Shown one piece after another: positions 11,521 through 55,734 of a stretch of 64,000 bases of DNA. The stretch covers positions 180,858,101-180,922,100 of the forward strand of contig NC_090371.1 in assembly GCF_036365525.1 (NCBI RefSeq). Direction: 5' to 3'. Below the pieces are notes generated by a model, which was not told the DNA's origin, made no database searches, and saw only the letters and a program-made list of their open reading frames with translations. Source of the stretch: Heterodontus francisci (Eukaryota). A program made the position numbers and the translations under genes. Position 1 is the first letter of the stretch. Each line of letters begins with the position of its first letter.

Positions 11521-13250
11521 ATGAACAGAGCAACTACTGTCACGATTCTCATCCTGCTTTTGTGTGCCATTGCTGCACAGGGTATGTCGATGTTTTTAGC
11601 TTGTGTTTTATTGCATTGGAGTGTGGAAAGGAGTCATTCTGTTGAGTTACTGATCAGCTATGCATGCCCCAGTGTGCAGGTTGGTTATTCATTGTGCAAT
11701 TAAATGGTCACCGACACTATATGCTATTGATAATACAATGCTGGTTTGAACAGCTTTCAAAGCTGAAACAAAGTGTCAAAATTCTTAACTTCAATCAACA
11801 TCTAAATCACAGTTAAATTGATTTTTTCACAGGTATTCCAATCCCAGGAACTCAGGGAAGGTGCCAGTGCCCTCAGACCAGCTCCAAAATGATCCGCCTG
11901 AATCATATCCAGAATTTGAAATTTATCCCTAAAGGATCTCACTGTGAGACACTGGAGATAATGTGAGTAAATGGGTCAGAAGGTCACCTTCAACATTTCT
12001 TCTTCTGTGACGTCTATTTAGAAGCTGTGCTCTTTGTTCAAAGCATGTTGGATCAATCACTGTTTATGATGAGTTTTACTGAATTCTCACCTTTCAGTGG
12101 GAGACATCCAATTTCTGTGGATTAGATTTTAAAGGTTTACCTTCTCTTCACAGTGTCACCTTGAAAACTGGAAATCAATTATGCGTGAGTCCTGATGCCA
12201 AGTGGGTGAAGACTATTATTAAAGCCAAGAAAGGTTGGTGTTGGTGTTTGTCAGAATTCAGACTTTACATGTCAATAAAAGCAATTTTTTATTTCACTAT
12301 GTCTGTTGTCTCCTGCTTGGCTGAGGGCATTGATTCCTTTCTGCTGCATATTCCCACAGGCTCTTGGTGCATTCTGGTACCATGCCCAAGTGGCCAACAT
12401 TTATGTGTCAGCCATGACAGTGAATGTCAGCAAGCTATTCAGCCACAATATTCATCAGAGTTGAGCCCTACACTGCCCTCGCCATGCATCCATATATGGT
12501 AAATCACAGAGGCGGCAGATGGGGGTCACTGGATAGCAATCAGCTGCAGGAATACTGGGCGATGTCATGTTCCCTCACCCACAATGCTGTGACCAATTGT
12601 TGTACCTATAGTACCCAGCCGAGATCAACCAATTAATCACAATGAATGATCAAAACAGAAACTTTAAAAATAAGATATTTAAAATATCTCTTCACCATTT
12701 TCATCTCCTTTTCCTGCCACATTCCTTCCATTATGGTCAACTGCAGAATTTTCTGCACTGCACATTAAGCTGCCCCATTGCATCTTTGTTTCAAACATAT
12801 TTTTAACCTTTAACATAATATTCCTGCAGACTCCTGTCAGAACTGAGATTTTAAATGGATATATTTGTTCAAGTTACACAGAAATGTTGTTCAGTAAACT
12901 CTAGACCATCTTTCTCCCTGTTTTGTGTCATCCACCATTGTCAGAAGTCAGGATTTTATTTACCATTTACTGACTTTGCATTATTCTAGAATGTCTTTCA
13001 TTCATCACAATGGAAGGAAGAGACAACTGTGACCCTGTGAATGCTGCATGCTGTTAAAACCAAATTGCAAAATCAATGAATTGTGAACAAAATCACAAGT
13101 GTTAGCAATGCTGTGTAATGGGCTGATTGATAATTCTCCATAATGATGTTGCTGAAGACATTGCCCTCTATATTAAAATAAATATCTGCGGTTAATGAGG
13201 AAAAATGTAATTTATTTTGTTTTATTTCAGGTGCCAGACAACACAACTGA
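11521..13250 (+). CDS. CXC chemokine copy 1 (ELR-negative, CXCL8/CXCL9-11-like), 96 aa; exons 11521-11581, 11833-11962, 12154-12233, 13231-13250
   Basis: Manual splicing at GT-AG sites (exons 61/130/80/20 nt, phases 1-2-1) gives MNRATTVTILILLLCAIAAQGIPIPGTQGRCQCPQTSSKMIRLNHIQNLKFIPKGSHCETLEIIVTLKTGNQLCVSPDAKWVKTIIKAKKGARQHN*. It has a signal peptide, the CQC motif plus two more Cys, and the EIIVTLK and C-x-x-P-x-x-x-WV motifs. The 4-exon layout is typical of CXC chemokines. Confidence 0.93.
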
Positions 13251-13554
13251 GAAATGAAGACACAATGGGTTGGACTCAATTCCACACCTGGGAACCCGCC
13301 GTACAGTGAACGCTGCAATGAAGGATGTTCTGTCCAACGTGTTCACTTTCTTCCGTCACCTTCTGATAACTTGTTCAAATATTAACCCTGCATTGTTTTT
13401 TGAAAATGGTTTCACTGTTTAACCCTGTTGCACTCTAATCGTTTACCCACAGCTAAAGAAAGCAGTCTGACGTTTTTGTGAAACCTTATGCCAGGACTAA
13501 AGTTTCTTTCACATGGTGTTAGGTGTACGATTATTAAGAATAGACTCTTTTAGA

Positions 13555-13950
13555 CTAGATTACGAGCAGAGAAAGGAGGGAGGGCAGGAAAGAACAAAAG
13601 GGAAAGCTGGTGACAGGGTTGAAGACAGGAGAGATTAAATGACAAAAGAAGTGATGGTGCAAGGTTTAAAAGAGATGGTAATGGAACAAGGAAAGAAAGA
13701 AAATCTGTGCATAGAGGTGTAAATGGGAAAGCAGAATCACCATCAAAAGATGCTGTCAAAAAATAGTGGGGGGGGTGGGGGGTGCAGGGGAAGTTATGAT
13801 CTGAAATTGTTGAACTCAATGTTGAGTCCGGAACACAGTAAAGTGCCAGTCAAAAGATGAGGCGCTGTTCTTCGAGCATGCACTGAGTTTGTTTGGCGCA
13901 GTGTAGGAGATTGAGGACACAAAGGTTAGAGTGGGAGTGGAGCAAAGAAT
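13555..13950 (-). mobile_element. Penelope-like retroelement fragment (GIY-YIG C-terminus + 3' region) in the chemokine 3' UTR region; also ~37654-38048 and ~56039-56433
   Basis: Minus strand reads ..LEEQRLIF*L..GLNIEFNNFR across a frameshift, the typical C-terminus of vertebrate Penelope GIY-YIG proteins, followed by a pyrimidine-rich tract. Confidence 0.65.
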
Positions 13951-14558
13951 TACTGTAATATGACATTGTATCAAACTAACTTACAAACCAAATTTGGTGC
14001 AATCTTCCTTTAGCTGCTCAAATCCTCTTGATGTTCTATGTGACATATTGATGGCAAGATATGGATTTTAATTTTTGACCAAATGTATTTCCAGTTCCAG
14101 TTTGAATGAAAACTTTTTTTATTAAAAGCCAAGAACAATTGCTTTTCATTAAAATTGGTGCTATTTTACTGCACTGACATTTAAACTGGAACCTTGGGAT
14201 TTTCTCAATAACTCACCAGACCTTTGGATCAATCCAAAACTGAAGTCTTTGGAAGCAATTTCTTTATAGAAATCATCTTGTGTATAAAATACCTACCTTT
14301 GAGGAGGTAGTGCTGCTTAATATTAACTGGAATAAGTGGCATTTATAATTAGAAGTAATTTTTGGTCAGTGATCAGTAGAAACATTTTGCAATGAGGGAT
14401 TTCACTGACTGGGTCTTGTTGACTGAAAACCTCAAAGGCTTTGTGTAAAAATTGTGTTGAATATCACTCAGGAAAATTGCTACACGTGATTGAATTGTGT
14501 GTGAATCAATCTTTGGAGTTTTTTGTACCTTTATCCTCAAATGTATTTGAGTGATTCA

Positions 14559-14564
14559 AATAAA
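14559..14564 (+). terminator. Candidate polyadenylation signal of the chemokine
   Basis: AATAAA at the end of an AT-rich tract with ATTTA motifs, followed by T/GT-rich sequence; ATTAAA alternatives near 14121 and 14148. Confidence 0.45.
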
Positions 14565-16027
14565 CTAGATTTCTTATGAAGAATGTGTTATCACTGTTTC
14601 TGAATCATCAGCAAAACAATTGTATGTTTCTCCAGTAGATAAATTTAATGGAATGACCAATAATAATAACCTGTTCGGGCCATTTCTTAAACAATGATAA
14701 AGGTGCAGGATATTTGCAGTGTGGCAGATTTCAGATCAAATTCTGTGAAATCTGGCAGTGATTTTTATGGAGTCTGTTTAACTTTCCTGTTCCCTCACCC
14801 ACACCCCCATTCACTGCTGGAACGGGTTGAAGGGGTTGTTAAGATGTCAGGTTGGTGGGGAGGGGGGCAGAGACGGTGGTGTGGACGCACCTTCCATTGT
14901 AACTCATCTGCAAACTGCTAGGCAGGGTCTGCTGTGCACTGAACTTCAAATCTGGAAGATGACAGGCCCGCATGCAGCCAAAACTAAATCATTGCAGGAT
15001 TCAGCAGGCAGGCTAGATAAAGCCATGTTAACTAGTTTTCTTCATCCCCACCTTCATCCACTCCCTCAAGGAGTCCTTGGGCCTCTCTTGCCCTGGTCTT
15101 GCTTCTCCCTCACATTAACAGTGTCTCCTCTCAACCATCTCCCCAAACCAGCACTGACTCTGGCTGGTGACTGTTTCCCTGGGACCCTGCTGGCTTCAAG
15201 CTCCCACTCAAATTCCCAGTCCCACCCACCAGCCCTGACCCCACCCACAGGTTTTCGGCTGGTCTCAGGGCTGCACTATACAAATGATGCCCAGATATTA
15301 AAATGGCGAGGGCTACACGCTCAACTTTCTATGGGGTTTCCCTTCCATTCGCAAGCCGCCTAGGCTGAATCTACCCCTGTAAGAGTTGATTTCTCCAGAG
15401 TGAGAACCTGTCAGAAGTAATATTTTTATTACATCATCTTATGTGTGGGGAGAGAGGCAACATCAGTTTAGGGATCTTTGATGTTCAGTAGCAGGATGTT
15501 GATTGCTCCCTATTTAAATACGACAATAACCAATGAACAGAAGGTGCTCCAGTTTAAGATCTACTCTTCCTGGACCATTATTTCTAAGAAAGCCAAATCA
15601 ATTCTGGAATCTTAATTGAGCTGATGCCTTGCTATTGTTTTTTAGATTTTCTACTTAGATTATCAAATGTCCCAAATGACATCCTATATGTGACCATGGG
15701 AAACTATTTCTCTCCATCCTTCTCAGGCAGCAGGAGGGACTAATCTCCGAATGATCAGGCGAGCTGTAGAGCTGGGACCAGCGCAGAATAATGATAAAAT
15801 AATTTCAATGACCATTGTAGTGGCAGCTGCTGGCTAGGTCACATCCATGTCCTGAAAACCCAAAGCCTACTCTGCTCAGGGCAGCACAATTCCTGGAAAG
15901 GGTCCAATTTTGGGTTGTCTGTTTTTCAGGCTTCCTTCAGGTGGATGATATTGCATCCTGAAATTAACCCCATTTATGCCTGTTTTATACTTGTAAAATG
16001 GGCTAAACAAGGAACAATTTCTACCTC

Positions 16028-19000
16028 TGTTACGACCAGGTGAGAAAAGAGGTCTACGGGTTCCCTCTTTAGTTTCCCCTGAGTGAATTCTTGTTCACTG
16101 CTCTCCAATTGTAATGGCAAAGAAATCAACCAGACAGGTGTTCTCAGATTTAAACAAGAAAGGTATAAGTTTATTAATTTAAAACTCTAATTCGGTTAAT
16201 ATTACTAAAAATACTCAACGCGACCACCCTAGCACGCATGCACAATAAACACACACGCGGTTAGAAACAGCAAAGTGCAAAGAATCAAGGGGAATTGTTT
16301 GAAGCAACAGTTGGAGTTCATTTTCTGTCTTTTGAGTTTGATGTAAAGTCTTCGATTGAAGTTCGATCTTGCTGTCTTGTTGGGGCCCAGTACACACTTT
16401 CAAACTTGTTCGATGACTTTCTGTCTTCTTGAAATCCACTTGCAGTTTCTTCTTTTTGTGAGAGAAAGAGATGCGGGGAGAGACCTTCCTTCTGTTTTAT
16501 CTTCAAATCGCAGTCTGACCCAAACTGTTCTGTGAACACAATTCAAACCAAAACTGAGCCAGCAGGCCAGTCATATAAGTAGCTCTTTTTTTTTAGAGAC
16601 AACCTGCCCGGTGAGTTTTTGTAAATTCTTTTGACTAGGGGGCTGGAATGCTGGCTTTCACACAGTCAATGCCTGGTGATCAAAATCCATTTGGATTAAT
16701 TGAATCAGGGAGCAGTTCCATTGTCTTCTCCAGGCAACTGTCTATTTGAATGCAAATGTTTCCAGCCACTGTCCTGTTCGAATGCAGGTTCAGCCATGTT
16801 TTCAGTCCAGTAAGAGTTTAAAATTAATGTTCCACATGGGGAAATTAATATGCCTCATTCTTGACAGGTATAGTTTTCACGACACCTCCTCATCCTGCAG
16901 AATGACATGCCACTTCAGAAGAGCATTTCATTAAAAGAGAATAGAGAGAAGAGTAAGTACAGGAAAACACACATGCATTTCTCTCATTCATTCTCATTCA
17001 TTCAGAAATCCTACAAATCGTTACAGCATGCCTTTAAGTAGCAATGCTGTTTTAACTGCCCTTATTGGCATCCCAATAAACATGTGATTTTTGGGTAATT
17101 TTTCAGTTTGTACATTTCCATGACTGCATAGTTTGTCTTTGTTCCTGTTGAGGTCTGCAGGGGGAGGTTCAGATTTAACTAACACTAGGTTAGAGTTCTG
17201 CACCTGAGAGTCAGTAGTGGGTGGATCCATTCAGTGATTTGATGAGTCATGCCAGGGCTTTTCACCTTAGGGGATAGTTGGTTCCCTTTCTTCCTGACTG
17301 TGGGGGATGATTCTTTGCTCATTTTCCCTTTGTCCTCTGGGACACTCCTGCTTGCAGGTATTTGTCCAGATTCTGCTACACTCCCTTGCGGCACTTCGAC
17401 TAGGTGAGGCATCACCCTTACAGTTTCTCTGCCCTCTGGAGGACTTTCTTTGTCTCTGCCAGTTTCTGTCAATGCTGTGAGTAATTCTGGTGGGGTGCTT
17501 CTGGCGTCTGCATTTACCTAGGAGAATGTGGAGTCTATGTTTTCCAACATTATGTGGTTGGCTGACCAGACAGTCGTGGTTTTCATCTGGGAACCCACTC
17601 GGATTTACTTTAACCTGTCCTCGTTGTCCCTTTTTCCCCTCTCCTCTCTAACCTTTTTCCAGCCTTGTGCCTGTCTGTCCCCTTTTGTTCTCAGCAGGGG
17701 TCCCTTACAGTTCACCAGCCCTCTGCTCGAGGGTCCTCCAAACTCTGAAACAGGACTTAGGGGTGCAGGTTTCACTGTAGGTTGGGGTTCCCCCTGAACC
17801 TGGCACATGTGGCAACTCCTACAGTACTCCACCACATGTTTGTGGAGTTTTCGCCAGTCAAACTGCTGCCTTACATGGGCTTTGGTCTCTCGTATACTGA
17901 CATGTATAGCCACTGTAACCTCATGGGCCATTCTTAAAATTTCTTCCTCTGCAGCACCACTAACGTGTGAACCACTGTCCACTCCTTGCTCTCAGGTCTG
18001 CGAGGAGAACACCACTTCTTTATCAATACCTCATTCTTTAAATAGTAGCAGTCAGGAACTCCCTCTGCTTCAATTTCAGACTGGGCAGCCTGTGCTAGCT
18101 CTCTCTATACTGGGTCGGCTCGCTGAGCCTCGGCTTGGGAAGATCTATTTAATTCATTCCCTGGGTCTTGTAACTTTCCAAAGAAAGTCTCAGACAGGCA
18201 GACCTCATGGTCATCTGCCGACAGTGCTGATTCAGTCTCCTCTGGGGGAGTTGGTTTGATCATGGCCCCATGCACTACACATTCAGGGAAACTGCAGAGG
18301 ACAGTCTCCTGCCACTGCCCTGTCTCTCTGACCTCCTGCGGTCTTTCTTTCACTACTGGAGAAGCTACCACCTTCACCCCTACCAGATCATTACCAAGGA
18401 GTAGGTCAACCCTGTCCGCAGGCAAACTAGGGACAATTCCTACAGTCACCGATCCCGAAACTAGGTCACACTCCAAGAGCACCCGGTGTAAATGTACACT
18501 GCCCTCCAATACCATTCACCACCATTCTAGTATTAACTACACTCTCTGGGGGAAAGGGCAGGCCTTTTCCCAGTAAAAGGGATCTCGTGGCCCCTGTGTC
18601 CCTCAGGATTACTATTGACTTGCTTGCTCCGCTCGAGGGGTCTGATAACGTTCAAGAATCCTATTAAATTTTCCAGAACTCGCAGTAGTATGCTTCCTGG
18701 GCCTTACTACTGCTGCAGTTAAAGCTACAGCTTGTTCTACTGTGCTTTCCATCAGGGTCCTTTCTCCGTCACTGAACTGGTGTGCCCTGATTAACCATAA
18801 AGGCTTTCCCCGTAGTTTCCAGCAGTCAGCTCTTAGATGACCTGCTTTAATACAGTGGAAGCACACAGGTCTCCAGGTCTCACTCCTACTTACAGCATCT
18901 TCCTTTTTGGCTGGAGGAGGGCCCCCTGTGTCTCCTGCTTTTCCATCTCTCCCAGGACTGCGTGCGCTACTATCACCTTTCCACCCTTTGTCCTTCTCAG

Positions 19001-21044
19001 ATTTGTGGGGGTGATGAGGAAAGACTTTTCCCTGGGGAACCGACTTACAGATGAGAGCAAACTCTTCAGCCAGAACTGCAGCTTGCCTGGCTCTTTGAAC
19101 TTTTTGTGTATTCATGGAGAGTGGGAGAGGCTTTTTAAATTCCTCGAGCAAAATTATCTCTCTGAAATTTTCATAGCTGGGCTGCACTTTAAGAGCCCTC
19201 AGTCACTGGTCAAAAGCCAGTTGCTTACATCTCTCAAACTCCAAGTAAGTTTGATCAGCTTGCTTCTTGAGGGTTTGAAACTTTTGGTGATAGGCTTCCG
19301 GTACTAGCTCATATGCCCAAGGATAGCATTTTTTGTCAGTTCATAATTTGATGAACTCTCATCTGGCAACAGGGAATAAACCTCATGGGCTTTTCCTCTT
19401 AACTTGCTTTGCAACAGAAGAGTCCAAGTCTCAGCTGGCCACTTTAACTGCCTTGCAAGTTTTTCAAAAGATACGAAAACTGCTTCCACGTCTCCCTTAT
19501 TGAATTTTGGGATCAGTTGAGTAAATTTTAACGATTCAGTACCCAGCCCTGAATTATGATCCTCCATATTGCCATGCTTTCACTGGGGTTACTCTGTTGC
19601 CCCCTAGTTAACTCAAGCTCTCTCTCCTCGCATTCCTTCCGGAAGGTTGTTGCTCTCTTTCTCTGCTGTCTCTCTTTTTCTTCACAGTGCTTCTGGAAGG
19701 CACTTTCTTTCTCTCTCTCTCCTCTCTCTCTTTCTCATTCTCTTTCCCTGTCTTCTAATTCAAATTTCCTCTGTTCCAATTGTATCTTTGTTCGCAATAC
19801 CTGTCGGAGTCTATTTCTAACCCTGTTTCTGCTTCTTCAGATTTGTGGGAAAATTGGTGAGCCACTAGTCTTAGGAGTTCAGACTTTCTAGCCTTGGCAC
19901 AGATAGTGATCTCACACTGCTCAGCCATTTTTCTGAACTCTTCCACAGATAGTGCTTTTAACTTATCCCAAGTTACTTCACCCTGGCTTGGGGAGCGACT
20001 GGCTTTAGTCATTAACATGTTAATATTCTAGCACACAACCACAAGAAAAACTGTATTGAAATCTTTTCTCTTTTTGATTGGGATCAATTTCCCACTTTCA
20101 ATTTCTCATTTGTCTGTGGGTCGAATCCAGACACTAGCCCCCAAATTTCTGTTACAACCAGGTGAGAAATGGGTCTCAGGGCTTCCTCTCAGTCCTTTCC
20201 TGGTTTGACTATAACATGGTTTAATTTTCAAACACCATGTTTTCAGCTTCCCCTCAGTGAATCCTTGTTCACTGCTCTCCAATTGTCATGGCAAAGAAAT
20301 CAATCAGACAGGTTTTCTTAGATTTCATCAAGAACGGTGTAAGTTTATTAACCCTAAAACACTAATTCGGTTAACACTACCAAAAATATGGGACCCAACC
20401 ACTGTAGCATGCATACGCGATAAACACACAGGCAGATAGAGAGAGAAAAGGGCAAAGAATCAAGGGGAAAGGTTTGAACCAATAGCTGGAGTTTATTTAC
20501 TGTCTTTTGAGTTTGATGTAAAGTCTTTGATTGCAATTCGATCTTGCCGTCTAGTTGGGGATCAGTACACACTTTCAAATTAGTTCGATGGTTTTCTGTC
20601 TTCTTGAAATCCAGTTGCAGTTTCTTCTTTTCGTGAGAGAGAGAGAGACAGGGAGAGACCTTCCTTCTCTTTTGTCTTCAAATTGCAGTCGGACCCAAAC
20701 TGTTCTGTGAACACAATTCAAACCAAACTTGGACCAGCAGGCCAGTCATGTGACTCGCTCTTTTTTTTTGAGACAACCTGCCCAGCGAGTTTTGTGGATT
20801 CTTTCAATCTTAGTCGACATCCACAGTAGGGGGCTGGAATGCTGGCTTCCACAGAAGATCCATTAGGGTTAATTGAATCAGAGAACAGTTCCATTGTCTT
20901 CTCCAGGCAACTGTGAGTTCAAATGCAAACCTTTCCAGCCACTGTCCTGTTAGAATGCAGGTGCAGCTATGTTTTTCGTCCAGTAAGAGTTTCATATGAT
21001 GAAATTAATATGCCTCATTCATGGCAGGTGCGGTTTTCATCACA
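16028..21044 (-). mobile_element. Internally deleted Gmr1-like Gypsy LTR retrotransposon; LTRs 20150-21044 (5') and 16028-16884 (3')
   Basis: TGT...ACA LTRs; 5-bp TSD ACCTC (16023-16027, 21045-21049); tRNA-Pro-like PBS TGGGGGCTag at ~20125-20143; purine tract ggatgaggagg next to the 3' LTR. Coding remnants: gag (FEKLARQLKWP..WTLLLQSKLRGKA), CCHC knuckle CFHCIKAGHLRADC, protease VILRDTGA (~18590-18612), integrase H-H-C-C finger (17605-17982). Confidence 0.92.
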
Positions 21045-22009
21045 ACCTCAGTCTCATGGGAAACTTCCAAATAAAGCTAGGAACCTTAGTAATGAAGAGA
21101 AAAGGAAAGTGAAGTTCTGATCCTTTAACTAGCAACACAATGAAAAACAACTATTCCTCATCAAGCTCCCAGCATCAGTATTGATCAGCTGCTGCTCTGT
21201 GTTTCCTCCAGTTTAAAATGACTTAAATTAGATTCTTGCATCCGAACAAATAAAGTTCAGAATTTAGGTTCATGGGCCCTGAAATTCCAGAATGAGTTTC
21301 CTAATCTTCTGGTGTAAATCTGGAAAGCGATTGGTGAACCCCTATTGAAGTGGAGAGTGACCTTGAGCTTTGCAGCCTGGGTGGCAACCTGGCAGAGCGG
21401 ATCACCCGCCCTTTATGTAACAAACTCGATTTTTGCTCCGTCGATTACAGTGACGTGAAAGTCAGGAGGGTTCTACCATGGATGGTTAACTCGCTCCACT
21501 CGGTTACTGCTTCACCTGAAAAAGTAGAAAAATACTCCCATGCTGCAAATTGCTGACTCTGAGGGTTCTGTGAGTTACCTGTCAATATCAAAGCAGCAGA
21601 TCGGGGGAAATCCCCCAAGGATTTGCCAAGCTTTAATGCCATTCTGGTCTAAGATCAATATTTGCATGGAAACACTTTATCGATGGCAGGCTCATCTTAC
21701 ACTGCTCCTCCCTGGTAGTGGGAATCATTGAGGAATCTAAAACTGGAGTAAAACAAGATTATCTTCTCTAATTCACAAATTCTTAGCCACACCAGATAGC
21801 CGCAATTGGTTTATATGTTAACAAATTATTGGAATTTCACGACCTGAAATGTGAATTACACCAAGGTCGAAGTCACAATACACTGTGATAAATATTCCAT
21901 TCCACCAATCCAAGTACGTGCTGGGAGTGCATCTGCAAATCTGCACATTTCCAGACATTTTGTCCACTAGTTTCATTGGGCACAAAATTGCAGTGTACCA
22001 TATTGTGAT

Positions 22010-22835
22010 AAAAAGGGGAGCAGGAATGGGCTGAATAATTACAGGGCAGGCAGCCTGAGAGATGGACAATTCTTTTTTGATGAGGTAACAAGAAGGGTCG
22101 ATGTGGGTAGAACATTTGATAGAGTCGATATGGATTTTAGCAGGACATTTGACAAGGTTCCACATGGCAGACTGGTCAGACAAGGAACAGATCTTGGGAT
22201 CCAAGGGCGAGTAGCTCGTCAGTCGGAACCAAAATTAGTTGAGTGGCAGGAGCATAGGGTAATGGTCAACGGGTGTTATTTCACTTGGATGGCTGTTTCC
22301 AGTGGGGTTCCAAAGGACTCAGTACTGGAACCCATGCTTTTGTGCTATACATCTATGGGCAAGAAACCTGCAGACAGTAGAAAAATCAATTGTGTGGTTA
22401 ACAGAGAAGAATAAAGCTGTAGATTGTAAGGAGATAATAACGAACTGGTCAGGTGGGATGAAGAGTGGCTGATTGAATTCTTTCTGGATAAATGTCAGGT
22501 AATCCATTTGGGGAGGGCAAACAAGGCACGGGAATACACAATAAATGGTAGGTGAAGGAAAAGTATAGAGCAACAGAGGGACATTGAAGTCCATATCCAC
22601 AGATCCCTGAAGGGGGCAGGACAGGCAGATAAGTGGTTAAGAAGGCAAATTGGATAGTTTGCATTATTAGACAGGGCATAGAAAATAATAGCAGAGAGGT
22701 CATGATAGAACTCTTTAAAACACTAGTTAGGCCACAGCTGGAATACTGCATGCAGTTCTGATCACTGCATCACAGGAATGATGTGATTGTGCCAGAGAGG
22801 GTACAAAGGAGATTTACCAAAATGTAGCCAGGAAT
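22010..22835 (+). mobile_element. Old CR1 RT fragment (duplicate ~40395-41220)
   Basis: MDFSRTFDKVPHGRLV, VSSGVPKDSVL, and ctagttaggccacagctggaatactg (LVRPQLEYC) remnants. Confidence 0.85.
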
Positions 22836-23625
22836 GACCTGGACATCAGTGGCACACAACAATTTGGACATTGTTCCATTAGATGTGGTACACCTTTATT
22901 AAACCACTATGCAATAGCGCATACTTACGATAATATTGGTTGCTTAGCAGCCCTGCCGCCTGGAGTCTGTCTCGGTCGTCAATCCGCCGATGAGGCTTTC
23001 ATGCGCAACTGTCGGATGGCTGACCACATCACCCTAACCACTGCAGCAAAGATGTTCCTGTGGGCTCTTTCTTTATCTCTTTTTGTGCTATGGTCCTGTG
23101 CCATATAAGTTAAACCTGTCATCGACTACTTCAATTAGTCTAGAATTACCTCACTGTCCTTTTCCAACTGACGTCAGTTCCTTGTCCAGTCGGTTTCTGC
23201 CTTGGGCTTCATGCAGGAATTTCAAGGCCCACGCTTGAGACAACAAAGCAGCTTGGATCCGCTCTGTTATCTCTAACACTGTTATCAATCTCCAGGATGG
23301 TAGTCAGGCATGTTTATTAGTTCTTAATAAGCAAAAGCCTATCTCTCCTCGGATGCAAGCACTTCTGGAGTTTAGTTCATTTTGTAGGATTTGTTAAGTC
23401 TGGCCAAGCTTTGTCATGACCAAATTGACCATCCTGCCTTGCGCTTTCAAGCCCACAATACAGTTCATTAGATGTCTTCAGTCGGGTGCTTCGATGTTCC
23501 ATGTTGCTACCATGAGACAGACTCCACACACACAGCTCTCCACCACAACTGGCCTGCATTAATGAATACAAAAGAAGCAAAGGAACAGTTGCACAGTTAT
23601 AAAGTTATTGCACTTGAAACGGTAA

Positions 23626-24208
23626 TGTTATGATCAGGTGAGGAGGGGTCGAAAGGCTCCCCTCTTGTCCCTTTTCTTGTTTGATGCAACAGGTTTTATT
23701 TCTTTTAAACAGTGGATGTGCTTACCAATTCAATGTATGTTTAACCCTTTTATGTGCTCTGATCATAAAAGAACCAATCGGACAGGTTTTCTTGAGGTTA
23801 AACAACAAAGAGGTTAGTTTATTGTACTTAAAATCAAAACACAATGTAAGTAAAAATAATAAACTATGCTCCAACTTTCATACACACACACACACACATG
23901 AGAATCACACACACACAAATAGGTTAGAGAGTAATGAAGAATAGATTGGCTGGATTAGAGCTCAGAAATAAAAAAAACAGTAGAAAGAACAAATAAAAGA
24001 ATATACAGTCTATGGAGTCTAGTAATTCAGTGGTCCACTGGATGAGCTCGTGATCCTCATGTTTCTGGCTGGTAGAGGTGGCCACCTGGATCAGAGTTTT
24101 CTTACACATTGTGATGTAGATGGTTCTCTCCTGGAGTCTTTGTCTGCAGCACTGATTGACTTGGATGTTACATCTGCCTGCAGATAGGGTTGATCTCACA
24201 GTGTTGCC

Positions 24209-24246
<38 letters not shown>

Positions 24247-24667: not shown

Positions 24668-24879
24668 TTAAAAAATATGTTGGCTTACAGACCACGGAGA
24701 GCGACCCGTTTTAAAAATAGGACAACTTCTGTTGGGTTCGCAGGTCTTGGTTTGTGGAATGTTTTATAAAGTCCAGTAAAGCTTGGCACACAGGGACAGA
24801 CAGTTGGTTGGTTAGATATTGTAACATTTTCTGTAACATTAAAGTAGAATTAATTAAGACACACAAGCAGAAGGGAAGT

Positions 24880-25600: not shown

Positions 25601-25601
25601 C

Positions 25602-40344: not shown

Positions 40345-40357
40345 NNNNNNNNNNNNN
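40345..40357. other. Assembly gap (13 N)
   Basis: 13 Ns in the sequence. Confidence 0.99.
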
Positions 40358-42593: not shown

Positions 42594-42631
<38 letters not shown>

Positions 42632-45600: not shown

Positions 45601-48600
45601 CCCTTTCTCATTACATAAAACTATACCTAAAATAGCATGTTTTCTAGTCGGTTCCTCAACGTACTGCTCAAGAAAACCATCCCAAACACGCTCCAGAAAC
45701 TCGTCCTCCACAGCATTAGTGATCATTAGTTTTACCCAATCTATATGTAGAATGAATTCACCAATGATTACTGTATTTCTCATGCCACATGCTTCTTTAA
45801 TCTCCTGATCAATACCATGCCACACACTACCACTACTGTTTTGTGGCCGCAAACAACTCCTACCAATGTTTGCTGCCCCTTTCTGTTTCTTAGCTCCACT
45901 CAAACAGATTCCACATTTTGTTCTACTGATCTGAGATCCTCCCTTACTAATGTACTGATCCCATCCCATATTATCAGCACCTCCTTTTCCTTTTTGCCTG
46001 TCCTTCCTAAATGTTCTTGAATATTCAGTTCTGAGTCTTGATCACCCTGTAGCCATGTTTCTGTTGCGGCAATTAGATCATACCCATTTACATCTATTTG
46101 GACCTTAAAATCATCTGTTTCGAATGCTGCGTGCATTAAGGTAGAATGGCCTTCACCTTGTCTTTTTGACATTATTCTGCATTCTAAGCCTAGTTGATGC
46201 TCGCCTTTGTTTTCCTACCTTCTAATGTCACTTGCTACTTTTCTACCTCCTGGTACCAGCTTTACCTCCTTCCAATTTGAGCTACCCCTCAGGTTCCCAT
46301 CCCCTGTCAAGCTAGTTTAAACCCTCCCCTACTGCACTAGCAAATCTCCCTGCGAGAATGTTAGTTCCGGTCCTGTAAAGGTGTAGCTCATCCATCTTGT
46401 ACAGGTCTCATCTACCCCAGAACTGGTCCCAATGCTTCAGAAATTTGATGCCCTCCCTCCGACACCAATTCTCCAGCCATGTGTTCAATCAATCCATCCT
46501 CCTATTCCCATGATCACTAGCATGTGGCACTGGGAGTAATCCTGAGACTACTGCTTTTGAAGTCCTGCTTTTTAATTTCCTTCCTAACTCCCTAAAATAT
46601 GCTTTCAGGACCTTATCCTTCTTCCTACCTATGTCATTGTGGACCATGACCACTGGCTGTTCACCCTCCCCCAGATGGATGTCCTGCATCCGCTCCGTGA
46701 CATCCTTAACCCTGGCACCAGGGAGGCAGCATACCATCCTGGAGTCACATTTACTGCCGCAGAGACACATGTCTGATCCCCTGACTATTGAATCCCCTAT
46801 CACTATTGCTCTGCCACTCTTCTTCCTCCCTTCCTGTGCAGCTGAGCTACCCATGGTGCCACAGACATTGCTCTGGCTGCACTCCCCCGGGGATCCATCG
46901 CTCTCACCAGTGTCCAAAATGGAAAACCAATTAGCAAGCAAGATAGACTCAGGGGACTCCTGCACTGCCTGCCTGGTTCTCTTAGACTGCCTGGCGGTCA
47001 CCCATTCCCTCTCTACCTGCATGCTCCCAATCAGCAATGTTACCACCTCTCTAAGCATGCTATTCGCGTAGTCCTCTGCCTCGCAGATACACAACAGTGA
47101 CTCCAGCTGCCGCCCAAGTTCTGAAACCCGAAAGCGACTGAACGTACAAACCTAAGAGCGTGCCAGCAGATAAGGCTAGAGGTTGTAAACTAACAGAGTC
47201 GGGGAGGGTTCAGGTGACGGGAGATTTACAAATCTGCAGAGAAAGGTCGAGGCATCCGAATAGTATAGCATTGTGGGTAAAGATAGGAAGGGACAGAGAG
47301 TTTAACAACATTTGTACATCAGCGAATAGGGGAATAGAAGTTAAAAAATTGAAATCAAAGGTTCGTTATCTGAATGCATGAAGCATCTACAAAATGATAG
47401 ATGAACTAATGGCACAAATGGAGGTAAATGATTTAGATCTAATTGCCAGTACAGAGACATGGTTACAAGGTGATCAAGGTTGGGAAATAAATATTTCAGG
47501 GTGCACAATATTTCAGAAAGACAGACAGAATGTCAAAGGAGGATGGGTATACTTGATAATAAAGGATGACATAAGGACATTAGTGTGAAAGGATCTGGCC
47601 TCAGAAGATTGTGAAGTAGTATCAGTATGGGTGGAAATTAGGAGTAGCAAGAGTCAGAAAACATTGGTTGGAGTAGTTTATAGGCCCACTAACAGTAGTT
47701 ATAACTTTGGACAGAACATTGAACAAGAACTTATTGGAGCTTGTAACAAAGGCAATATAATAGTTATGGGGCTCGTTAATCTTCATATAGACTGGGACAA
47801 TGAAATTGGCAAGCGTGGTCCAGAATATGAGTTCTTAGAATGTTTGCGGGACAGTTTCTTGGAGCAATACATCATGGAGCTGACTAGGAATAAAGGTATC
47901 TCAGATCTAGTATTGTGTAATGAAGCACGGTTATTAGTAATGTCATAGTAAAAGATCCACTGGGAAATAGTGATCATAATACAACTGCATTCCATTTAAA
48001 ATTTGTAAGTGATATACTTCGCTCACAAACAATAATCATAAATTGAAATAAAGCCAATTACATAGGTATCAAGGGAGAACTGGCTAACGTAAATTGGGTA
48101 AATAGACTAAAAGATATGGCGGTAAATGAACAGTGGGAAACTTTAAAAGAAACAATTGAAAATATTCAACAAAAATACGTTCCATTAAAAAACACAAACT
48201 CAGCAAGTAAGACCCATCTGTGGCTCACTCAGGAAGTTAAGGACAGTGTTAAATTAAAAGACGAGGCTTACAATTTTGCAAAAGAGAAGCAAGTCTGAGT
48301 ATTGGGAATGTTTTAGAAACCAGCAAAGGACCACCAAAAAGTTGATAAAAAAGTAAAAAATGGAATGAGAGTAAACTGGTCAGTAATATAAAAACAGATT
48401 GTGAGAGCTTTTATAGATATATAAAAAGGAAGAGAGTAGCTAAAGTAAACGTTGGTGTCTTAGAAGCAAAGACAGGAGAAATGATCATGGGGAATGAAAA
48501 CATGGCAATGAACACATATTTCGTGTTGGCCTTCATAGTAGAAGATACATGTTTCATTCCAGAAATAGATAGTAACCTAGGGGCTAAAAAGAGTGAGGAA

Positions 48601-51600
48601 ATTAAGGAAATTCATATCTGTAGAGAAAAAGTATTGGAAAAACTAAAGGGACTAAATTCCAACAAATCTGCAAGACCTGAGGTTCTAAAAGTGATAACTG
48701 CAGACGTAGTGGCTGAGCTAGCTATGATTTTCCAAAATCTCATTAGATTCGAGAACGGTGCCATCAGATTGGAAATTGGCAAACGTTACACTGCTTTCCA
48801 AGAAAGGAGGGAAAGAGAAAACAGTGAACTACAGGCCAGTTAGCCTAAGACCAGTCATTGGGAAAATGCTGGAATCTATTATTAAGAAAGTTTTAACAAT
48901 TCGCCTAGAAAAGCACTGTGTATAATTAGAACAAGTCTACGTGGTTTTATGAAAGAGAAATCCTGTTTGACAAATTTATTAGTGATTTTTGAGGATGTAA
49001 CTCATTGGGTATATAAAGGGGAACCAATAGATGTAGTATACCTGGATCTCCAAAAGGCATTTGTTAAGGTGCCACACAAAAGTTTAATAGGCAAGATATG
49101 GGCTCATGAGTTAGAGGTAATATATTAGCATGGATAGAGGATTGGTTAATGGACAGAAGGCAAAGGGTGGGCATAAACCAGGCATTTTCTCATTGGCAGG
49201 CTGTGAATTGTGGAGTGCTGCAAGGATCAGTGTTGGGCCTCAGCTATTTACAATCTATATTTATGACTTAGATGAAGAGACAGAGAGTAAAGAATCTAAG
49301 TTTGCTGATGATACAAAGATAGGTGGAATATTAAGTTGTGGGGAAGACACAGAGAAGCTGCAAAGAGATAGAGACATGTTAAGAGAGTGGGCAACAAGAT
49401 GGCAGATGGAGTATAATGTAGGGAAGTGTGAAGTTATTCACTTTGGTCATAAGAATAAAAGAACTGAATATTCTCTAAAAGGTGTGAAACAAGGAGGCAG
49501 ACAAACATCTGTGGAGCATTAAAAGTTATCTCAATTCATCAGCAATCATTGCTAAGGTCAAAGGAGCCTGTGATTAAGAAACAACAGGCACGGGTCAAAG
49601 GTGAAACACCCTGTGTGCAGTTATGATTCTGCTGTCCAGTTCCTCACCACCTCTATAATGACTGCTGAATCAAGGGGGTTCTGCAACCAATGCTTGCAGG
49701 GGGCATTGTCCTCAGTGCACTTCAGAGGATCATAGATTGGCACTGCAGCATGGCTGATGATTATCATCCCTGCACATGTATAAATGCTGTGCTGCATGGT
49801 AGCTGCTGGTATTTGCAGCATTTGGCACAGCGTGGTATTTTCCCATGTGTTGATCCAGATCCTGAGAAAGCAAATTAACCAAGTCATCCCCAGGTACATT
49901 TGTCAGGTTCAGCAGAATGGCTGGTGCCATTTTTGTGGCAGAGCTCCGTTCATGCAGTTGCCTGGAAAGCATGGTGTTCTGTAAATGTGGTGCCTCTGCA
50001 AACCTTCAAATTTAAGGATGAGGCAGATACTTTGTATCTCATTGTGATGCCACTGGGAGTCCGCTGGCACAGCTGTCTTTGGAAAGAGGCCCCTTTCCCC
50101 ACCTCCATCAACACACTGTTTTCTGTAGTGAGGTATTCTACTTGTCTCTGATGATGTGGCTGTGCAGAGGGCAGTGGGAGGGCACACAATAATTCTCTGC
50201 TCCTCCAAAGCTTGCAGGATTCCTGGGGGTCGTGCTGTACATCAGTAAGAAAATCAAGTGTGGTGTAAAACAGCGATTTGTTATCGTCTGTTCTGTGCCA
50301 CTGTCGAAGACCAATTTCACCGGCTTGGTGGTCTGGAAAATGGCACGGCATTCCAGCCGTCACCTTTAACTGTTTAAATATTTAAATGCCATCTGGAATG
50401 ATTAGCAGATTTGATATCTAGAATATTCTTTATTCATTACATTTATCTCATGGCCAAATTCCAACTGGGTATGTTGTTGAGCCTCAGGAAAACCTGGCTG
50501 CCAAGTCAAACCATCAGAATTTGTTAGGAACAAACTATTAATCAAAATTATTTTGCAATTCTGCCAGATTGCCCACGATGTTGCAATCTCTTCTGCCTGC
50601 GTGCAAGCCCCCCTCACCCCTTCCTGCTCACTGCTGCACGGGAGCAAATTCAACTTTCACCCATGAGCCACTTGGAGTATAAAATAATCTGATTTCCTGG
50701 AATTCACACGGGTTCACCATCGCAGACTGCTGTTTGAATGAAATCTGACTCTGGAACTTCCTCAACCACTGGACAAACCCAGGGGGAGGAGTCACCACAA
50801 CAGCTGCCTCAACACTTTACAAATCATAAACTGAGCCGTGAATCACCTCCAGACGCCCCTGAAGCTTTTATTTCATCCCTGTCTTGCTTGTGAACAGTGA
50901 CTGTGTGATATCAGCACAGGTCCTTGTATATAACTAACTGATCTCTCATGGTGTTGCTCTGGTTAACATGGCCAGGTGTGTGAAGGGGATAAGACCCGGC
51001 TGTGAAAACATTGGTGAGGGGATTCACCTGAAGTTTGGTATCAATGGGATTGTAGAATGTGGGGATTGGGTCAGCAGCTGATTCCTAGTATTTGGGAGAA
51101 GTTTCAGTGCGGAGGGTAATACAGCTCCGGAGGTGGAGCATGTTCCAGGGTTCTGCAGCATTTGAGGGAGGTGCAGAACTGGAAATGATTCCAGGTTCTG
51201 GCAGCAGTCAGAAGTGGATAACATGCATTGTTGTGGATCTAACTGCATGGGATAGGGAAAATGTAAGCGGTCTGCATGCAGTGAGGAGTGGCCACCTAGC
51301 ATCTGGATAGAAGTTGGCAGATTCTTGACAGCACTGTGCTGGTTTCCAAGAAACTGGGTGTGGTGGTTTGTACATCTGGGTCAGTCAGCACTGGGGATGG
51401 AGCGTCCCAGGGTGTGAGGAATATGATGGCTTCTGTCGCATTGGAGCGGGCCTGGGGTCTGTAAAAAAGATCAACACCTGAAGCCTAGTGAGAATGGAAG
51501 CAGCAGGTCTGCTTGGTTGAAAGGGGATTTATGAGTTTGGGCCAGGTGAGATAGCCTGTGGGAGATGAGGCAGGAGGATGGTGGGGAGGAGGGGAGGGAG

Positions 51601-53811
51601 ACAGTTCCATATCACTGAGGAATTTCCCCTTCAGGAAGTCTTGTGGGATGAAAGTTCACAGAATCAAGATTTCAATGTCTCTCAGAAATCTTCCAAAGAA
51701 CTTCACACATCGGGATATACATGTACACGGGGAAGATCAGATCAATTTTCTCTTTCCACATAGTTTGAAATATGCACAGCTCCTCCTGTGGATGTCTGAT
51801 TTTCTGTTCTTGCAAACACAACTTTCACCACAGCAAAAATTCCCCTTCCATTTGATGGTCAGTAGCAGAGCTACTGCATCAACAGATTACCCATGTCTCC
51901 AGCAAAGCATGCTGCTGATTAAACTCCACTGTGACATTTTAAATCAAGAGTTTACTCACAAATACAATGAGATCAATCCTTCTCCCCACCAGCACAGACC
52001 GGGATCGAGTTTGTTTGCTCTCACCTGGTGTTAAGGGGGTTGTAATGGCTTCAACATGGGGTTGGTTGCCTAACTGCCACATTAACACCAGCGATGTGAT
52101 CAGTTCCGCTGTAGAAGGGTCTACTGCCGGGTGACCATAGCGCCTGCCTGCTTCAGATGATAGGCCCCTCTTCATATGCAAATTAGGTTCCCAGGATGTC
52201 ATTAGGACCTGATTACCATTTTCAGTAGGAAGTGGTGCAAAGATGATGTCAGCAAAGAGGCCTTCAAAAGGTAAGTGTCGAGTTGGGTCTGATCAGGTTC
52301 TGGTCAGGTAGCCGTGCTCTACCCTCGCCCTCTTTGATTATGACCACACACCCTCCTGCACCTTGCCACCAACACTTGTAACTGATATTGATGCCAGCAG
52401 GTCTGGCTCAGGCTTTCAATGTAGCAAACTGCATTGGATTTCTGGCATTGTGCTCCACAGCTCACCTGCTGAATTTGTGACAGGGACCTCACTGCACAGT
52501 TGCCCAAAATGCAAATCTGTCCTGTGATCTCATGTTCTAGGTATGTACATACCTGATCTACCTGATAAGTTGGAATACTAAATTTTTCAACTCCTTTTAT
52601 ACACTGTTGCAAACTCTGACTGAAAAGGAATTACACGTGAAAAATCTTTGCACTGTTTACAATTAGAACCTGATCTTTTAAAATAAGCAAAGATATAGTT
52701 AAGCTTTGCAACTTGCAGTTAGAGGATGCCCCATTTCCTGTAATTCACAAGTTTCAGCTCAGGGTTGTGTTTCCTTTTTATTATAATCCTAAGGTTCAGT
52801 GCCAAGTCTGCACAGGAGCATTGTCCTGTGGGTCAGCTGCAAAATGTGGAACTGAATTTTCATTTTGGGGAGGAAAATTGAATATACAATTAATCATACC
52901 TTGTAATACATGATTCCATGCAAAGTCTCAGCTGCATTTTAACTCTGTCAATAAATCAGTTTGAATAATTCTCAAGGAAATGACTGAGCAAAATTAAACA
53001 TCTCTGCAGGCGCAGGTATGTTTAAGATATTTCTATTCCAGAATTGAAGCTATTGCCTCCTCAAACTTAAAATCTATTGTAAGTGGAATGAACACTAACC
53101 AACTTTAGAACTACATTTACACCATTGCACCTCTTTGCAAACTTGTCGCATTACAGGCCAAAGAATCACATTATAAAGTTCAGCCAATGAAAGGGAGAGT
53201 TATTTCCTGTAAATCACATGTTTCAGTTCCATTGACAGGTCAGCATGTTCTCTTATTTTTGTGAGGAGGTTACCAATGGGTCAGGTGTAAAATCTGGAAC
53301 TGGATTATTCTCTGGATCATCTGACGCTTCTTGGCTTGGGGAACAACAATTAAAAGCATCAAATGATCTTATCAATGTTTAATTATCTGTCATTTACAAT
53401 TGTGTAAAAATAAAAGGAAGATATTAATGCCGCACCATAAGGACTTGAATCAATTATCATTGAGATGAAAACTACAGAAATATTGGGGGTAAAATTCAGT
53501 TTTAATCGGGGTGCGAGATGGGCAGTATGGATCAGTCACCCGTTATATACCACAGTTAATTCTCCTTTACAGTGAAGCTTAACTGAAAGAGAAATTGGAC
53601 AGGATGTATATACAGGTGACTGATCTTCTAACACTTTTTTGCACTTTTGCCAAAGATGAATTTTACACCACTTTTCTGAAACTTGCAATTAAACCTTTAA
53701 AATCTACACAAATCTAGTTCCCCACCTATAACAAGGGATTATCTCCTGTTGCTGCTGTAAACCGTGCAGAAGTTGTGAATATATTTAAAACTGCAAAAGT
53801 AAAAGAAAGTT

Positions 53812-53906
53812 TGATTCAGCAGCAGGGAAATTCCCTCCCACAGAACTTTGGCCAGCTTTCACTGCTTATGATTATGCAAAATGAAAGTAAAGGATCTCAA
53901 TAAATA
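53812..53906 (+). promoter_or_regulatory. Proximal promoter of chemokine copy 3 (NF-kB site 53825-53834)
   Basis: Same motifs at offset 18385 from copy 2. Confidence 0.65.
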
Positions 53907-54013
53907 GGAGCTCATTGAAGCTCTCTTCAGCAGAACCTCATTCAACAGAGAGAGGCACAGAGGTAGACTGAAGATCCTTCAGCAGAAATCTATTCAGCAT
54001 CACAAAGTCAAAG

Positions 54014-55734
54014 ATGAACAGAGCAACTACTGTCACGATTCTCATCCTGCTTTTGTGTGCCATTGCTGCACAGGGTATGTCGATGTTTTTAGCTTGTGTT
54101 TTATTGCATTGGAGTGTGGAAAGGAGTCATTCTGTTGAGTTACTGATCAGCTATGCATGCCCCAGTGTGCAGGTTGGTTATTCATTGTGCAATTAAATGG
54201 TCACCGACACTATATGCTATTGATAATACAATGCTGGTTTGAACAGCTTTCAAAGCTGAAACAAAGTGTCAAAATTCTTAACTTCAATCAACATCTAAAT
54301 CTCAGTTAAATTGATTTTTTCACAGGTATTCCAATCCCAGGAACTCAGGGAAGGTGCCAGTGTCCTCAGACCAGCTCCAAAATGATCCCTCTGAATCATA
54401 TCCGGAATTTGAAATTTATTCCTAAAGGATCTCACTGTGAGACACTGGAGATAATGTGAGTAAATGGGTCAGAAGGTCACCTTCAACATTTCTTCTTCTG
54501 TCACGTCTATTTAGAAGCTGTGCTCTTTGTTCAAAACATGTTGGATCAATCAATGTTCAGGATGAGTTTTACTGAATTCTCACCTTTCAGTGGGAGACAT
54601 CCAATTTCTGTGGATTAGATTTTAAAGGTTTACCTTCTCTTCACAGTGTCACCTTGAAAACTGGAAATCAATTATGCGTGAGTCCTGATGCCAAGTGGGT
54701 GAAGACTATTATTAAAGCCAAGAAAGGTTGGTGTTGGTGTTTGTCAGAATTCAGACTTTACATGTCAATAAAAGCAATTTTGTATTTCACTATGTCTGTT
54801 GTCTCCTGCTTGGCTGAGGGCATTGATTCCTTTCTGCTGCATATTCCCACAGGCTCTTGGTGCATTCTGGTACCATGCCCAAGTGGCCAACATTTATGTG
54901 TCAGCCATGACAGTGAATGTCAGCAAGCTATTCAGCCACAATATTCATCAGAGTTGAGCCCTACACTGCCCTCGCCATGCATCCATATATGGTAAATCAC
55001 AGAGGAGGCAGATGGGGGTCACTGGATAGCAATCAGCTGCAGGAATACTGGGCGATGTCATGTTCCCTCACCCACAATGCTGTGACCAATTGTTGTACCT
55101 ATAGTACCCAGCCGAGATCAACCAATTAATCACAATGAATGATCAAAACAGAAACTTTAAAAATAAGATATTTAAAATATCTCTTCACCATTTTCATCTC
55201 CTTTTCCTGCCACCTTCCTTCCATTATGGTCAACTGCAGAATTTTCTGCACTGCACATTAAGCTGCCCCATTGCATCTTTGTTTCAAACATATTTTTAAC
55301 CTTTAACATAATATTCCTGCAGACTCCTGTCAGAACTGAGATTTTAAATGGATATATTTGTTCAAGTTACACAGAAATGTTGTTAAGTAAACTCTAGACC
55401 ATCCTTCTCCCTGTTTTGTGTCATCCACCATTGTCAGAAGTCAGGATTTTGTTTACCATTTACTGACTTTGCATCATTCTAGAATGTCTTTCATTCATCA
55501 CAATGGAAGGAAGAGACAACTGTGACCCTGTGAATGCTGCATGCTGTTAAAACCAAATTGCAAAATCAATGAATTGTGAACAAAATCACAAGTGTTAGCA
55601 ATGCTGTGTAACGGGCTGATTGATAATTCTCCGTAATGAAGACATTTCCCTCTATATTAAAATAAATATCTGCGGTTAATGAGGAAAAATGTAATTTATT
55701 TTGTTTTATTTCAGGTGCCAGACAACACAACTGA
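54014..55734 (+). CDS. CXC chemokine copy 3 (same sequence as copy 2, probably the same locus assembled twice); exons 54014-54074, 54326-54455, 54647-54726, 55715-55734
   Basis: Offset exactly 18385 from copy 2; I saw no differences in the exons. Confidence 0.85.

What the first reader, a model, noticed from the sequence alone, without database searches (positions are those of the whole stretch)
11521..55734. Tandemly amplified ELR-negative CXC chemokine hidden from the ORF track
Seen: four short exons splice into an intact 96-aa secreted CXC chemokine, repeated in a ~24-kb unit. It has QGR instead of ELR before CQC. Known: ELR governs CXCR1/2 neutrophil activity in mammals. The N-terminus (LCA..QG.P...GRCxC) resembles CXCL9/11, while PKGSHC and P..KWV resemble CXCL8. 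Inference: a lineage-specific chondrichthyan chemokine expansion of uncertain orthology, possibly continuing beyond the window.
Basis: partly seen in the sequence, partly recalled or inferred. Interest (0 to 1): 0.7.

Follow-up and report, generated by a model that had tools for sequence, protein, structure and literature searches.

The report
Shark chemokine array, one false copy
This is a real, spliced shark immune-signalling (chemokine) gene of a family already catalogued in sharks and rays, repeated in a young tandem array in which one of the three copies in this window is likely an assembly duplicate; its receptor, likely of the CXCR3 type, is untested.

Summary
The gene is real: four exons (61/130/80/20 nt) give a 96-aa QGR-CQC chemokine at 11521, 35629 and 54014. 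All three junctions occur in transcript-type contigs of two studies. It is not hidden: all 7 intact models in the array equal RefSeq 'interleukin-8-like' proteins labelled Heterodontus francisci. Copies 2 and 3 lie in an 18,374-bp block duplicated at 99.98% exactly around a 13-N gap, likely a scaffolding overlap; removing it restores the 24.1-kb unit. The array continues on both sides: likely six intact copies, one damaged copy and two older paralogs, between CNOT6L and a TNIP gene. Intron phases 1-2-1 and these flanks place it in chondrichthyan CXCL cluster B (Kawasaki 2024), which lists 5-10 such genes in each of 8 elasmobranchs. The CXCL8-like xLR genes lie about 61 Mb away, so 'IL-8-like' misleads, and lack of ELR is normal in sharks. 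The copies form one species-level clade, with an exon-2 conversion tract and no excess of amino-acid change. Trees do not resolve the deep sister group. Likely role: inducible leukocyte attractant through a CXCR3-type receptor (about 45%). Ordinary; low interest.

The parts
11521..13250 (+). Copy 1 (array unit u3): exons 11521-11581, 11833-11962, 12154-12233, 13231-13250 (stop included); 96 aa; intron phases 1-2-1
   Evidence: equals P0002, XP_067872185.1; junctions
11332..11342 (+). NF-kappaB consensus site 189 bp upstream of the ATG of copy 1 (consensus recalled; function untested)
   Evidence: same place in all 8 array units and in the older paralog p9
35629..37349 (+). Copy 2 (u4): exons 35629-35689, 35941-36070, 36262-36341, 37330-37349; differs from copy 1 by R42P and Q47R plus 2 synonymous codons
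   Evidence: equals P0018
54014..55734 (+). Copy 3 (u5): exons 54014-54074, 54326-54455, 54647-54726, 55715-55734; identical to copy 2; likely the same locus assembled twice
   Evidence: 0 differences over promoter, exons, introns, 3' flank; P0018 carries two RefSeq accessions
40345..40357 (.). 13-N scaffold gap, the only N run in the 664 kb joined around the window
21971..40344 (.). Left member of the 18,374-bp duplicate; ends at the gap
40358..58729 (.). Right member of the duplicate; starts at the gap; 99.978% identical, last 18,073 bp exact
16246..21970 (.). 5.7-kb part of the normal unit; recurs at 58730-64454 and 82838-88562 but is missing between copies 2 and 3
8733..32863 (.). One full 24.1-kb array unit (start homologous to 32864 and 51249)
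5900..7219 (+). Reverse-transcriptase fragment of a LINE-type repeat; related fragments fill much of the spacer DNA
   Evidence: RVT_1, E 2.7e-30; 1 of 8 frames scanned had a Pfam hit

Best explanation
A four-exon, spliced CXC chemokine gene of the elasmobranch cluster-B (QGR) family lies in a young tandem array between CNOT6L and a TNIP gene; copy 3 of the window is likely an assembly duplicate of copy 2, and the protein likely acts as an inducible leukocyte attractant through a CXCR3-type receptor. Shown: gene structure, splicing, array layout, flanks, species-level clade, chemokine fold of the predicted model. Inferred: the signal peptide is cleaved at the exon 1/2 boundary; the basic 75-aa mature protein (pI 9.97) forms two disulfides (C31-C58, C33-C74) and binds glycosaminoglycans; NF-kappaB induces it; its IPIP...GR N-terminus enters a CXCR3-type pocket. 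The array likely grew by unequal crossing-over and is mixed by gene conversion, giving mainly more dosage, with two N-loop variants. Odds: identity, array and false copy about 0.85; CXCR3-type receptor about 0.45.
For: Models equal RefSeq proteins, 7 of 7. Junctions in contigs of 2 studies. Pfam IL8 and CXC fold. CNOT6L last exon on + strand upstream (E 7.5e-37); TNIP-type UBAN exon downstream (E 7.6e-13); same order, exon sizes 61/130/80, CXC at exon-2 nt 30 and phases 1-2-1 as cluster-B rows in PMC10801876 Dataset S1. xLR genes with 136-nt exon 2 at C1:242 Mb, 5 of 6 loci NLR/SLR. Array copies one clade 100/99. False copy: duplicate bounded by the gap, 0 substitutions against 65 for the next real unit, regular 24.1-kb spacing after collapse, 13-N mark described in PMC7649008. 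CXCR3: xPxx and G-R motifs of CXCL9-11 (PMC13089336) present, Pro at mature position 2 in 35 of 38 aligned relatives; a CXCR3-like gene is reported in little skate (PMC9252580 passage).
Against: Trees do not group QGR with CXCL9/10/11: best tree joins it to the CXCL13-like group at only 74/57; AU p 0.43 for CXCL9-11 and 0.37 for CXCL8. The basic R/K four residues before the first Cys that CXCR3 ligands share is Thr here, and the N-terminus is one residue longer. Best PDB sequence hit is CXCL8 (52.7 bits vs 45.8 for CXCL10), and WV is a CXCL8-like motif. No receptor or induction data exist here. A second 13-N gap, inside CNOT6L, has no long flanking duplicate, so 13 N alone does not prove overlap; the scaffolding method of G000 was not checked and no DNA reads were laid.
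Confidence: 0.8

Rival explanations
1. All three window copies are real; copy 3 is a very recent tandem duplication with an 18.4-kb unit.
For: The array is young: neighbouring units are 99.3-99.6% alike. RefSeq lists two accessions for the identical protein. The other 13-N gap seen has no long duplicate.
Against: Both ends of the duplicate coincide with the gap to the base; the only 4 differences are one-base indels in the first 300 bp after the gap; the 5.7-kb part found in the neighbouring units is missing only here.
Confidence: 0.1
2. The protein works like CXCL8: an NF-kappaB-driven granulocyte attractant on CXCR1/2-type receptors, ELR being dispensable in fish.
For: Top PDB sequence hit is CXCL8; Glu and WV motifs kept; fish CXCL8 lacking ELR attracts neutrophils (PMC6145007 passages); kappaB site; AU test does not reject (p 0.37).
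Against: The xLR cluster-A genes exist separately at C1:242 Mb; phase 1-2-1 occurs only in cluster B; the N-terminus is xPxx...GR, not xLR.
Confidence: 0.3
3. The QGR genes are a separate chondrichthyan lineage, possibly duplicated from the neighbouring CXCL13-like genes, with CXCR5 or another receptor.
For: Own clade 99/99; best tree joins it to the CXCL13-like group (74/57); two xSR genes with 133-nt exon 2 lie between it and CNOT6L.
Against: Support is weak, and only 1 of 8 rows of that group is named CXCL13. Phase 1-2-1 is shared with cluster-B genes of coelacanth and lungfish.
Confidence: 0.25
4. Most of the array is misassembly of one or two genes (haplotype duplication).
For: One copy is likely false; u3, u4 and u6 are over 99% alike in places.
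Against: No other gap in 664 kb; six different proteins, promoters up to 13% apart; transcript contigs carry at least three exon-2 types; other elasmobranchs have 5-10 such genes.
Confidence: 0.04

Closest known systems
Chondrichthyan CXCL cluster B, QGR-type genes between cnot6l and tnip3 (Kawasaki et al. 2024, PMC10801876, Dataset S1)
   Same: Flanks, orientation, exon sizes 61/130/80/17 (+stop), phases 1-2-1, QGR, CXC at exon-2 nt 30, WV, pI near 10, tandem copies (sawfish has 9 QGR rows).
   Different: This species is not among the nine chondrichthyans listed; the copies here are younger (89-100% protein identity) and spaced 21-28 kb.
RefSeq 'interleukin-8-like' proteins XP_067872185.1, XP_067872322.1, XP_067872438.1 and neighbours
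   Same: Letter-for-letter identical to the spliced models.
   Different: The automatic name implies CXCL8 kinship that synteny does not support; two accessions likely stand for one locus.
CXCL9/CXCL10/CXCL11 (CXCR3 ligands, cluster B of bony vertebrates)
   Same: Cluster-B position as argued in PMC10801876; no ELR; xPxx start and G-R before CXC; basic.
   Different: No basic residue four before the first Cys; one extra N-terminal residue; keeps PKG-HC and WV; not grouped by the careful tree.
CXCL8 and shark cluster-A xLR genes
   Same: Fold, Glu and WV motifs, best PDB sequence score.
   Different: No xLR; exon 2 of 130 not 136 nt; phase 1-2-1 not 1-2-2; locus about 61 Mb away.
13-N overlap duplication of optical-map scaffolding (BiSCoT, PMC7649008)
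   Same: Contig end, 13 N, then the same sequence again over kilobases.
   Different: The scaffolder used for G000 was not checked; another 13-N gap nearby lacks a long overlap.

Membership tests
CXC chemokine | C-X-C plus two further Cys; IL8 domain | tested here: met
   Cys 31, 33, 58, 74; PF00048 60.7 bits vs cut-off 21.3
CXC chemokine | Three-strand sheet plus C-terminal helix | tested here: met
   Predicted model pLDDT 81; top Foldseek rows all CXC chemokines
CXC chemokine | Cleaved signal peptide, secretion | tested here: inconclusive
   Hydrophobic helix 3-19 in the model; cleavage site taken from orthologue rows of Dataset S1; no predictor run
Chondrichthyan cluster B (QGR type) | Between cnot6l and tnip3 | tested here: met
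   CNOT6L; TNIP-type exon; TNIP3 itself is not in the PDB hits, paralog identity rests on position
Chondrichthyan cluster B (QGR type) | Intron phases 1-2-1, exons 61/130/80 | tested here: met
   junctions
Chondrichthyan cluster B (QGR type) | Groups with listed QGR proteins | tested here: met
   Relatives include accessions listed in Dataset S1, e.g. XP_041033766.1, XP_038648972.1, XP_020387328.1; clade 99/99
CXCL8 / cluster A | ELR or xLR before CXC | tested here: not met
   QGR
CXCL8 / cluster A | Phases 1-2-2 and position beside jchain/anxa5 | tested here: not met
   1-2-1; xLR genes lie at C1:242 Mb; jchain itself was not located
CXCL8 / cluster A | Glu and WV motifs | tested here: met
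   E62 and W81-V82; also in nearly all shark cluster-B rows of Dataset S1, so not discriminating
CXCL9/10/11 (CXCR3 ligands) | xPxx hydrophobic N-terminus | tested here: met
   IPIP if cleaved at the exon boundary; Pro in 35 of 38; motif from PMC13089336
CXCL9/10/11 (CXCR3 ligands) | R/K-x-G/V-R before CXC | tested here: not met
   T-Q-G-R: G-R kept, first basic residue absent in all 38
CXCL9/10/11 (CXCR3 ligands) | One clade with CXCL9-11 | tested here: inconclusive
   Open group at SH-aLRT 80 in the quick tree; not in the careful tree, AU p 0.43
CXCL9/10/11 (CXCR3 ligands) | CXCR3 activation and IFN-gamma induction | not testable with these tools
   Needs receptor and stimulation assays
CXCL13 | One clade with CXCL13 | tested here: inconclusive
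   74/57; exon sizes and phase differ from the neighbouring 133-nt xSR genes
13-N overlap artefact | Duplicate bounded by a 13-N gap | tested here: met
13-N overlap artefact | Reads show a single copy | not tested
   Only RNA-type contigs were available

The most novel reading that the evidence does not exclude
The QGR genes are an elasmobranch CXC lineage of their own, and in this species gene conversion is shuffling two receptor-contact N-loop types (IIPPKL and MI[P/R]LNH) and a new C-helix among young copies, making ligands with different receptor preference: a live case of chemokine specificity evolving by exon-sized conversion.
Probability: 0.15. Interest if true: 0.5.

Novelty: new member of a known kind. 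Interest (0 to 1): 0.2.

Why it matters
Modest. It corrects two things in public annotation: these 'interleukin-8-like' genes are cluster-B genes, not the shark CXCL8 cluster, and one annotated gene is likely counted twice. The family itself is of some interest: it is the best positional candidate for the shark counterpart of the CXCR3 ligands CXCL9-11, and I found no functional study of it. A receptor assay would date the origin of the CXCR3 axis.

Tried and rejected
Positive selection: pN below pS in 14 of 15 pairs of the six distinct intact copies (mature region, simple counts); not supported. Locating jchain with PF15097 found nothing (0 of 7 candidates; the control rang nowhere), so cluster A at 242 Mb rests on xLR motifs and exon size. 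Run search: no holder is on record as RNA; the 7 rows are guessed RNA, and I rely only on spliced contigs. The u7-specific end of exon 3 was not seen in 4 runs; contigs show presence, not absence. ESM Atlas gave only generic CXC clusters. Control for the 13-N mark: the gap inside CNOT6L shows no long overlap, only a 354-bp 94% repeat match. The kappaB pattern count in the window (24 vs 7.6 expected) is inflated by palindromes and the duplicated units and is not used as support. Earlier findings: none. Paper search for a second source on 13-bp gaps: 0 papers. PMC10450919 held nothing relevant. No complex was predicted: no shark receptor sequence was in hand.
Full report
Observation. The window holds three copies of a four-exon gene on the + strand, with ATGs at 11521, 35629 and 54014. 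Exons are 61, 130, 80 and 20 nt (stop included), introns are GT..AG, and the frame gives 96 aa with QGR before CQC. Pfam IL8 scores 60.7 bits against a cut-off of 21.3. A model from 38 aligned relatives (pLDDT 81) has the chemokine fold, and the top structural matches are all CXC chemokines. In contigs of runs guessed to be RNA, intron 1 is skipped in 3 of 4 runs and introns 2 and 3 in 4 of 4, from 2 studies, with intron depth near zero; one 863-nt contig of organism B spans all four exons.

It is already annotated. An exon-2 search returned 96-aa RefSeq proteins named 'interleukin-8-like [Heterodontus francisci]' on a record of the same length as C1. All 7 intact models I built equal such proteins letter for letter. 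Copies 2 and 3 both equal P0018, which carries two accessions.

One window copy is likely false. Bases 21971-40344 recur at 40358-58729 at 99.978%, with no substitution and four one-base indels, all within 300 bp after a run of 13 N at 40345-40357; the last 18,073 bp are exact. The duplicate ends at the gap on both sides. The next real unit differs at 65 positions over the same segment. A 5.7-kb part found in the neighbouring units is missing only between copies 2 and 3. Collapsing the block turns spacings of 24,108, 18,385 and 24,096 bp into two regular 24.1-kb units. PMC7649008 (part 1 of 3 read: abstract, introduction, methods) describes this pattern: overlapping contigs written out with 13 N between them, duplicating the shared region. 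Against this: I did not check how G000 was scaffolded, laid no DNA reads, and the only other 13-N gap in 100 fetched stretches, inside CNOT6L, has no long overlap. I put the artefact at about 0.9.

The array. The window is G000:C1:180858101-180922100. In window coordinates the units start at -43722 (u1), -16590 (u2), 11521 (u3), 35629 (u4), 54014 (u5, the likely false copy), 78110 (u6), 106626 (u7) and 128145 (u8). u8 has lost the normal exon-3 acceptor by a short deletion, and its RefSeq model is aberrant (P0003). Two older paralogs follow at 147213 (+, QGR, 64% identical) and 215647 (-, AGR). That leaves likely six intact young copies, one damaged copy and two older genes. The 7 distinct young proteins form one clade at 100/99 in a tree of 58 elasmobranch proteins; catsharks, Heptranchias and rays show their own recent clades. 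This is repeated birth and death, not a single expansion.

Which family. Upstream lie two minus-strand genes with xSR and a 133-nt exon 2, then the last exons of CNOT6L on the + strand. Downstream, about 170 kb past the last chemokine, is a TNIP-type UBAN exon. Kawasaki et al. 2024 (PMC10801876; whole text and Datasets S1 and S2 read, S3 and S4 not) describe two CXCL clusters in cartilaginous fish. Genes with intron phases 1-2-1 all lie in cluster B, between cnot6l and tnip3. By my count of Dataset S1, 8 of 8 elasmobranchs have 5-10 such rows, and 7 of 8 have 3-9 rows with QGR, mostly with exons 61/130/80/17 and CXC at exon-2 nt 30. Our gene has exactly these values. The CXCL8-like cluster is elsewhere: six loci at C1:242.1-242.4 Mb have a 136-nt exon 2, five with NLR or SLR. 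No elasmobranch row in Dataset S1 has ELR, and PMC6145007 (passages) states that cartilaginous fish CXCL8 lacks it. So lack of ELR is not unusual here. This species is not among the nine listed. Four searches (listings only, 25 of 67 shown in the last) showed no paper on this array or on the function of QGR chemokines.

Deep orthology. From 150 representatives (14 of 148 new rows dropped for length or missing Cys pattern) a quick tree of 146 rows left the QGR clade (99) in an open group at SH-aLRT 80 with proteins named CXCL9, CXCL10 and CXCL11 and two agnathan proteins. A careful tree of 49 of these rows, picked after that first tree, kept QGR as a clade (99/99) but joined it to the CXCL13-like group at only 74/57. 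AU tests rejected neither CXCL9-11 (p 0.43) nor CXCL8 (p 0.37). Only 20 rows were named by look-up, so group labels are partly inferred. Sequence alone leaves the sister group open; synteny and intron phase argue for cluster B. Nomiyama 2013 (PMC3568907, passages) lists four elephant-shark genes as CXCL22G; whether these are this family is untested, as their supplement was not read.

Evolution inside the array. pN is below pS in 14 of 15 pairs. There is a clear conversion tract: u7 is close to u6 in non-coding DNA (21 of 2289 differences) but not in exons 2 and 3 (19 of 210; Fisher p 4.5e-11; 4 of 15 pairs under 0.001, all with u7; noticed after the fact). Ten consecutive informative sites from the end of intron 1 through exon 2 match the distant u1 (0 of 100,000 permutations). 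u1 and u7 differ at 1 of 130 exon-2 bases but 106 of 833 promoter bases. The result is two N-loop types. Transcript contigs match the R42 type, the P42 type and the u1/u7 type, so several copies are expressed.

Likely mechanism. Shown: structure, splicing, layout. Inferred from family knowledge: secretion after cleavage at the exon 1/2 boundary, two disulfides, a basic mature protein (pI 9.97) that binds glycosaminoglycans and forms a gradient. A recalled NF-kappaB consensus sits about 189 bp before the ATG in all 8 units and in the older paralog p9, which suggests inflammatory induction. CXCR3 ligands share a hydrophobic xPxx start and R/K-x-G/V-R before CXC (PMC13089336 and PMC11026165, passages). 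Ours has the first and G-R, but lacks the basic residue and is one residue longer. A CXCR3-like gene is reported in little skate (PMC9252580, passage); I did not look for it in G000. I commit to a CXCR3-type receptor at about 0.45, CXCR1/2 at 0.3, other at 0.25. The young copies most likely add dosage.

Verdict. A real gene and a real array, of a catalogued family, already annotated under a misleading name, with one likely false copy. New here: the layout in this species, the artefact and the conversion tract. Interest 0.2.

Noticed in passing
G000:C17:93130001-93330000 (L081-L100): A second young chemokine array: 10 copies of a CC chemokine at about 18-31 kb spacing, units 96-99% alike, with an identical exon-2 peptide in all 10 and no N gap; another copy near C17:93735000.
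   Followed up: partly
L015:2626-4400 (unit u7, G000:C1:180964726): Recombinant copy: u6-like non-coding DNA, u1-type exon 2, and a private exon-3 end with several adjacent changes (WLHIIT) whose donor was not found.
   Followed up: partly
L017 (unit u8, G000:C1:180986245): Exon-3 acceptor lost by a short deletion between two TCAC words; an upstream AG keeps the frame with an insertion; intron 3 is longer. Likely a decaying or altered copy.
   Followed up: partly
L069:7990-8002 (G000:C1:180546090): A second 13-N gap, inside a CNOT6L intron, without a long flanking duplicate.
   Followed up: yes
L080:4900-5800 (G000:C4:147.94 Mb): A lone CXCL8-like gene (GLR, 136-nt exon 2; RefSeq model P0075) on another chromosome, outside clusters A and B; it groups with xLR proteins.
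   Followed up: partly
L077 (G000:C1:242.44 Mb): A cluster-A gene with HPR instead of xLR before CXC.
   Followed up: no
L045-L046 (G000:C1:181069945-181073747, minus strand): Diverged AGR chemokine (P0091) closing the cluster, with no kappaB consensus in 330 bp upstream; like the AGR rows of whale shark and catshark in Dataset S1.
   Followed up: partly
window 12234-12237: A second GT four bases into intron 3 would give an open 117-aa form with a different C-terminus in every intact copy; not seen among the joints listed.
   Followed up: partly
G000:C17 about 93276000-93287000: An 11-kb short-period tandem repeat inside the CC chemokine array.
   Followed up: no
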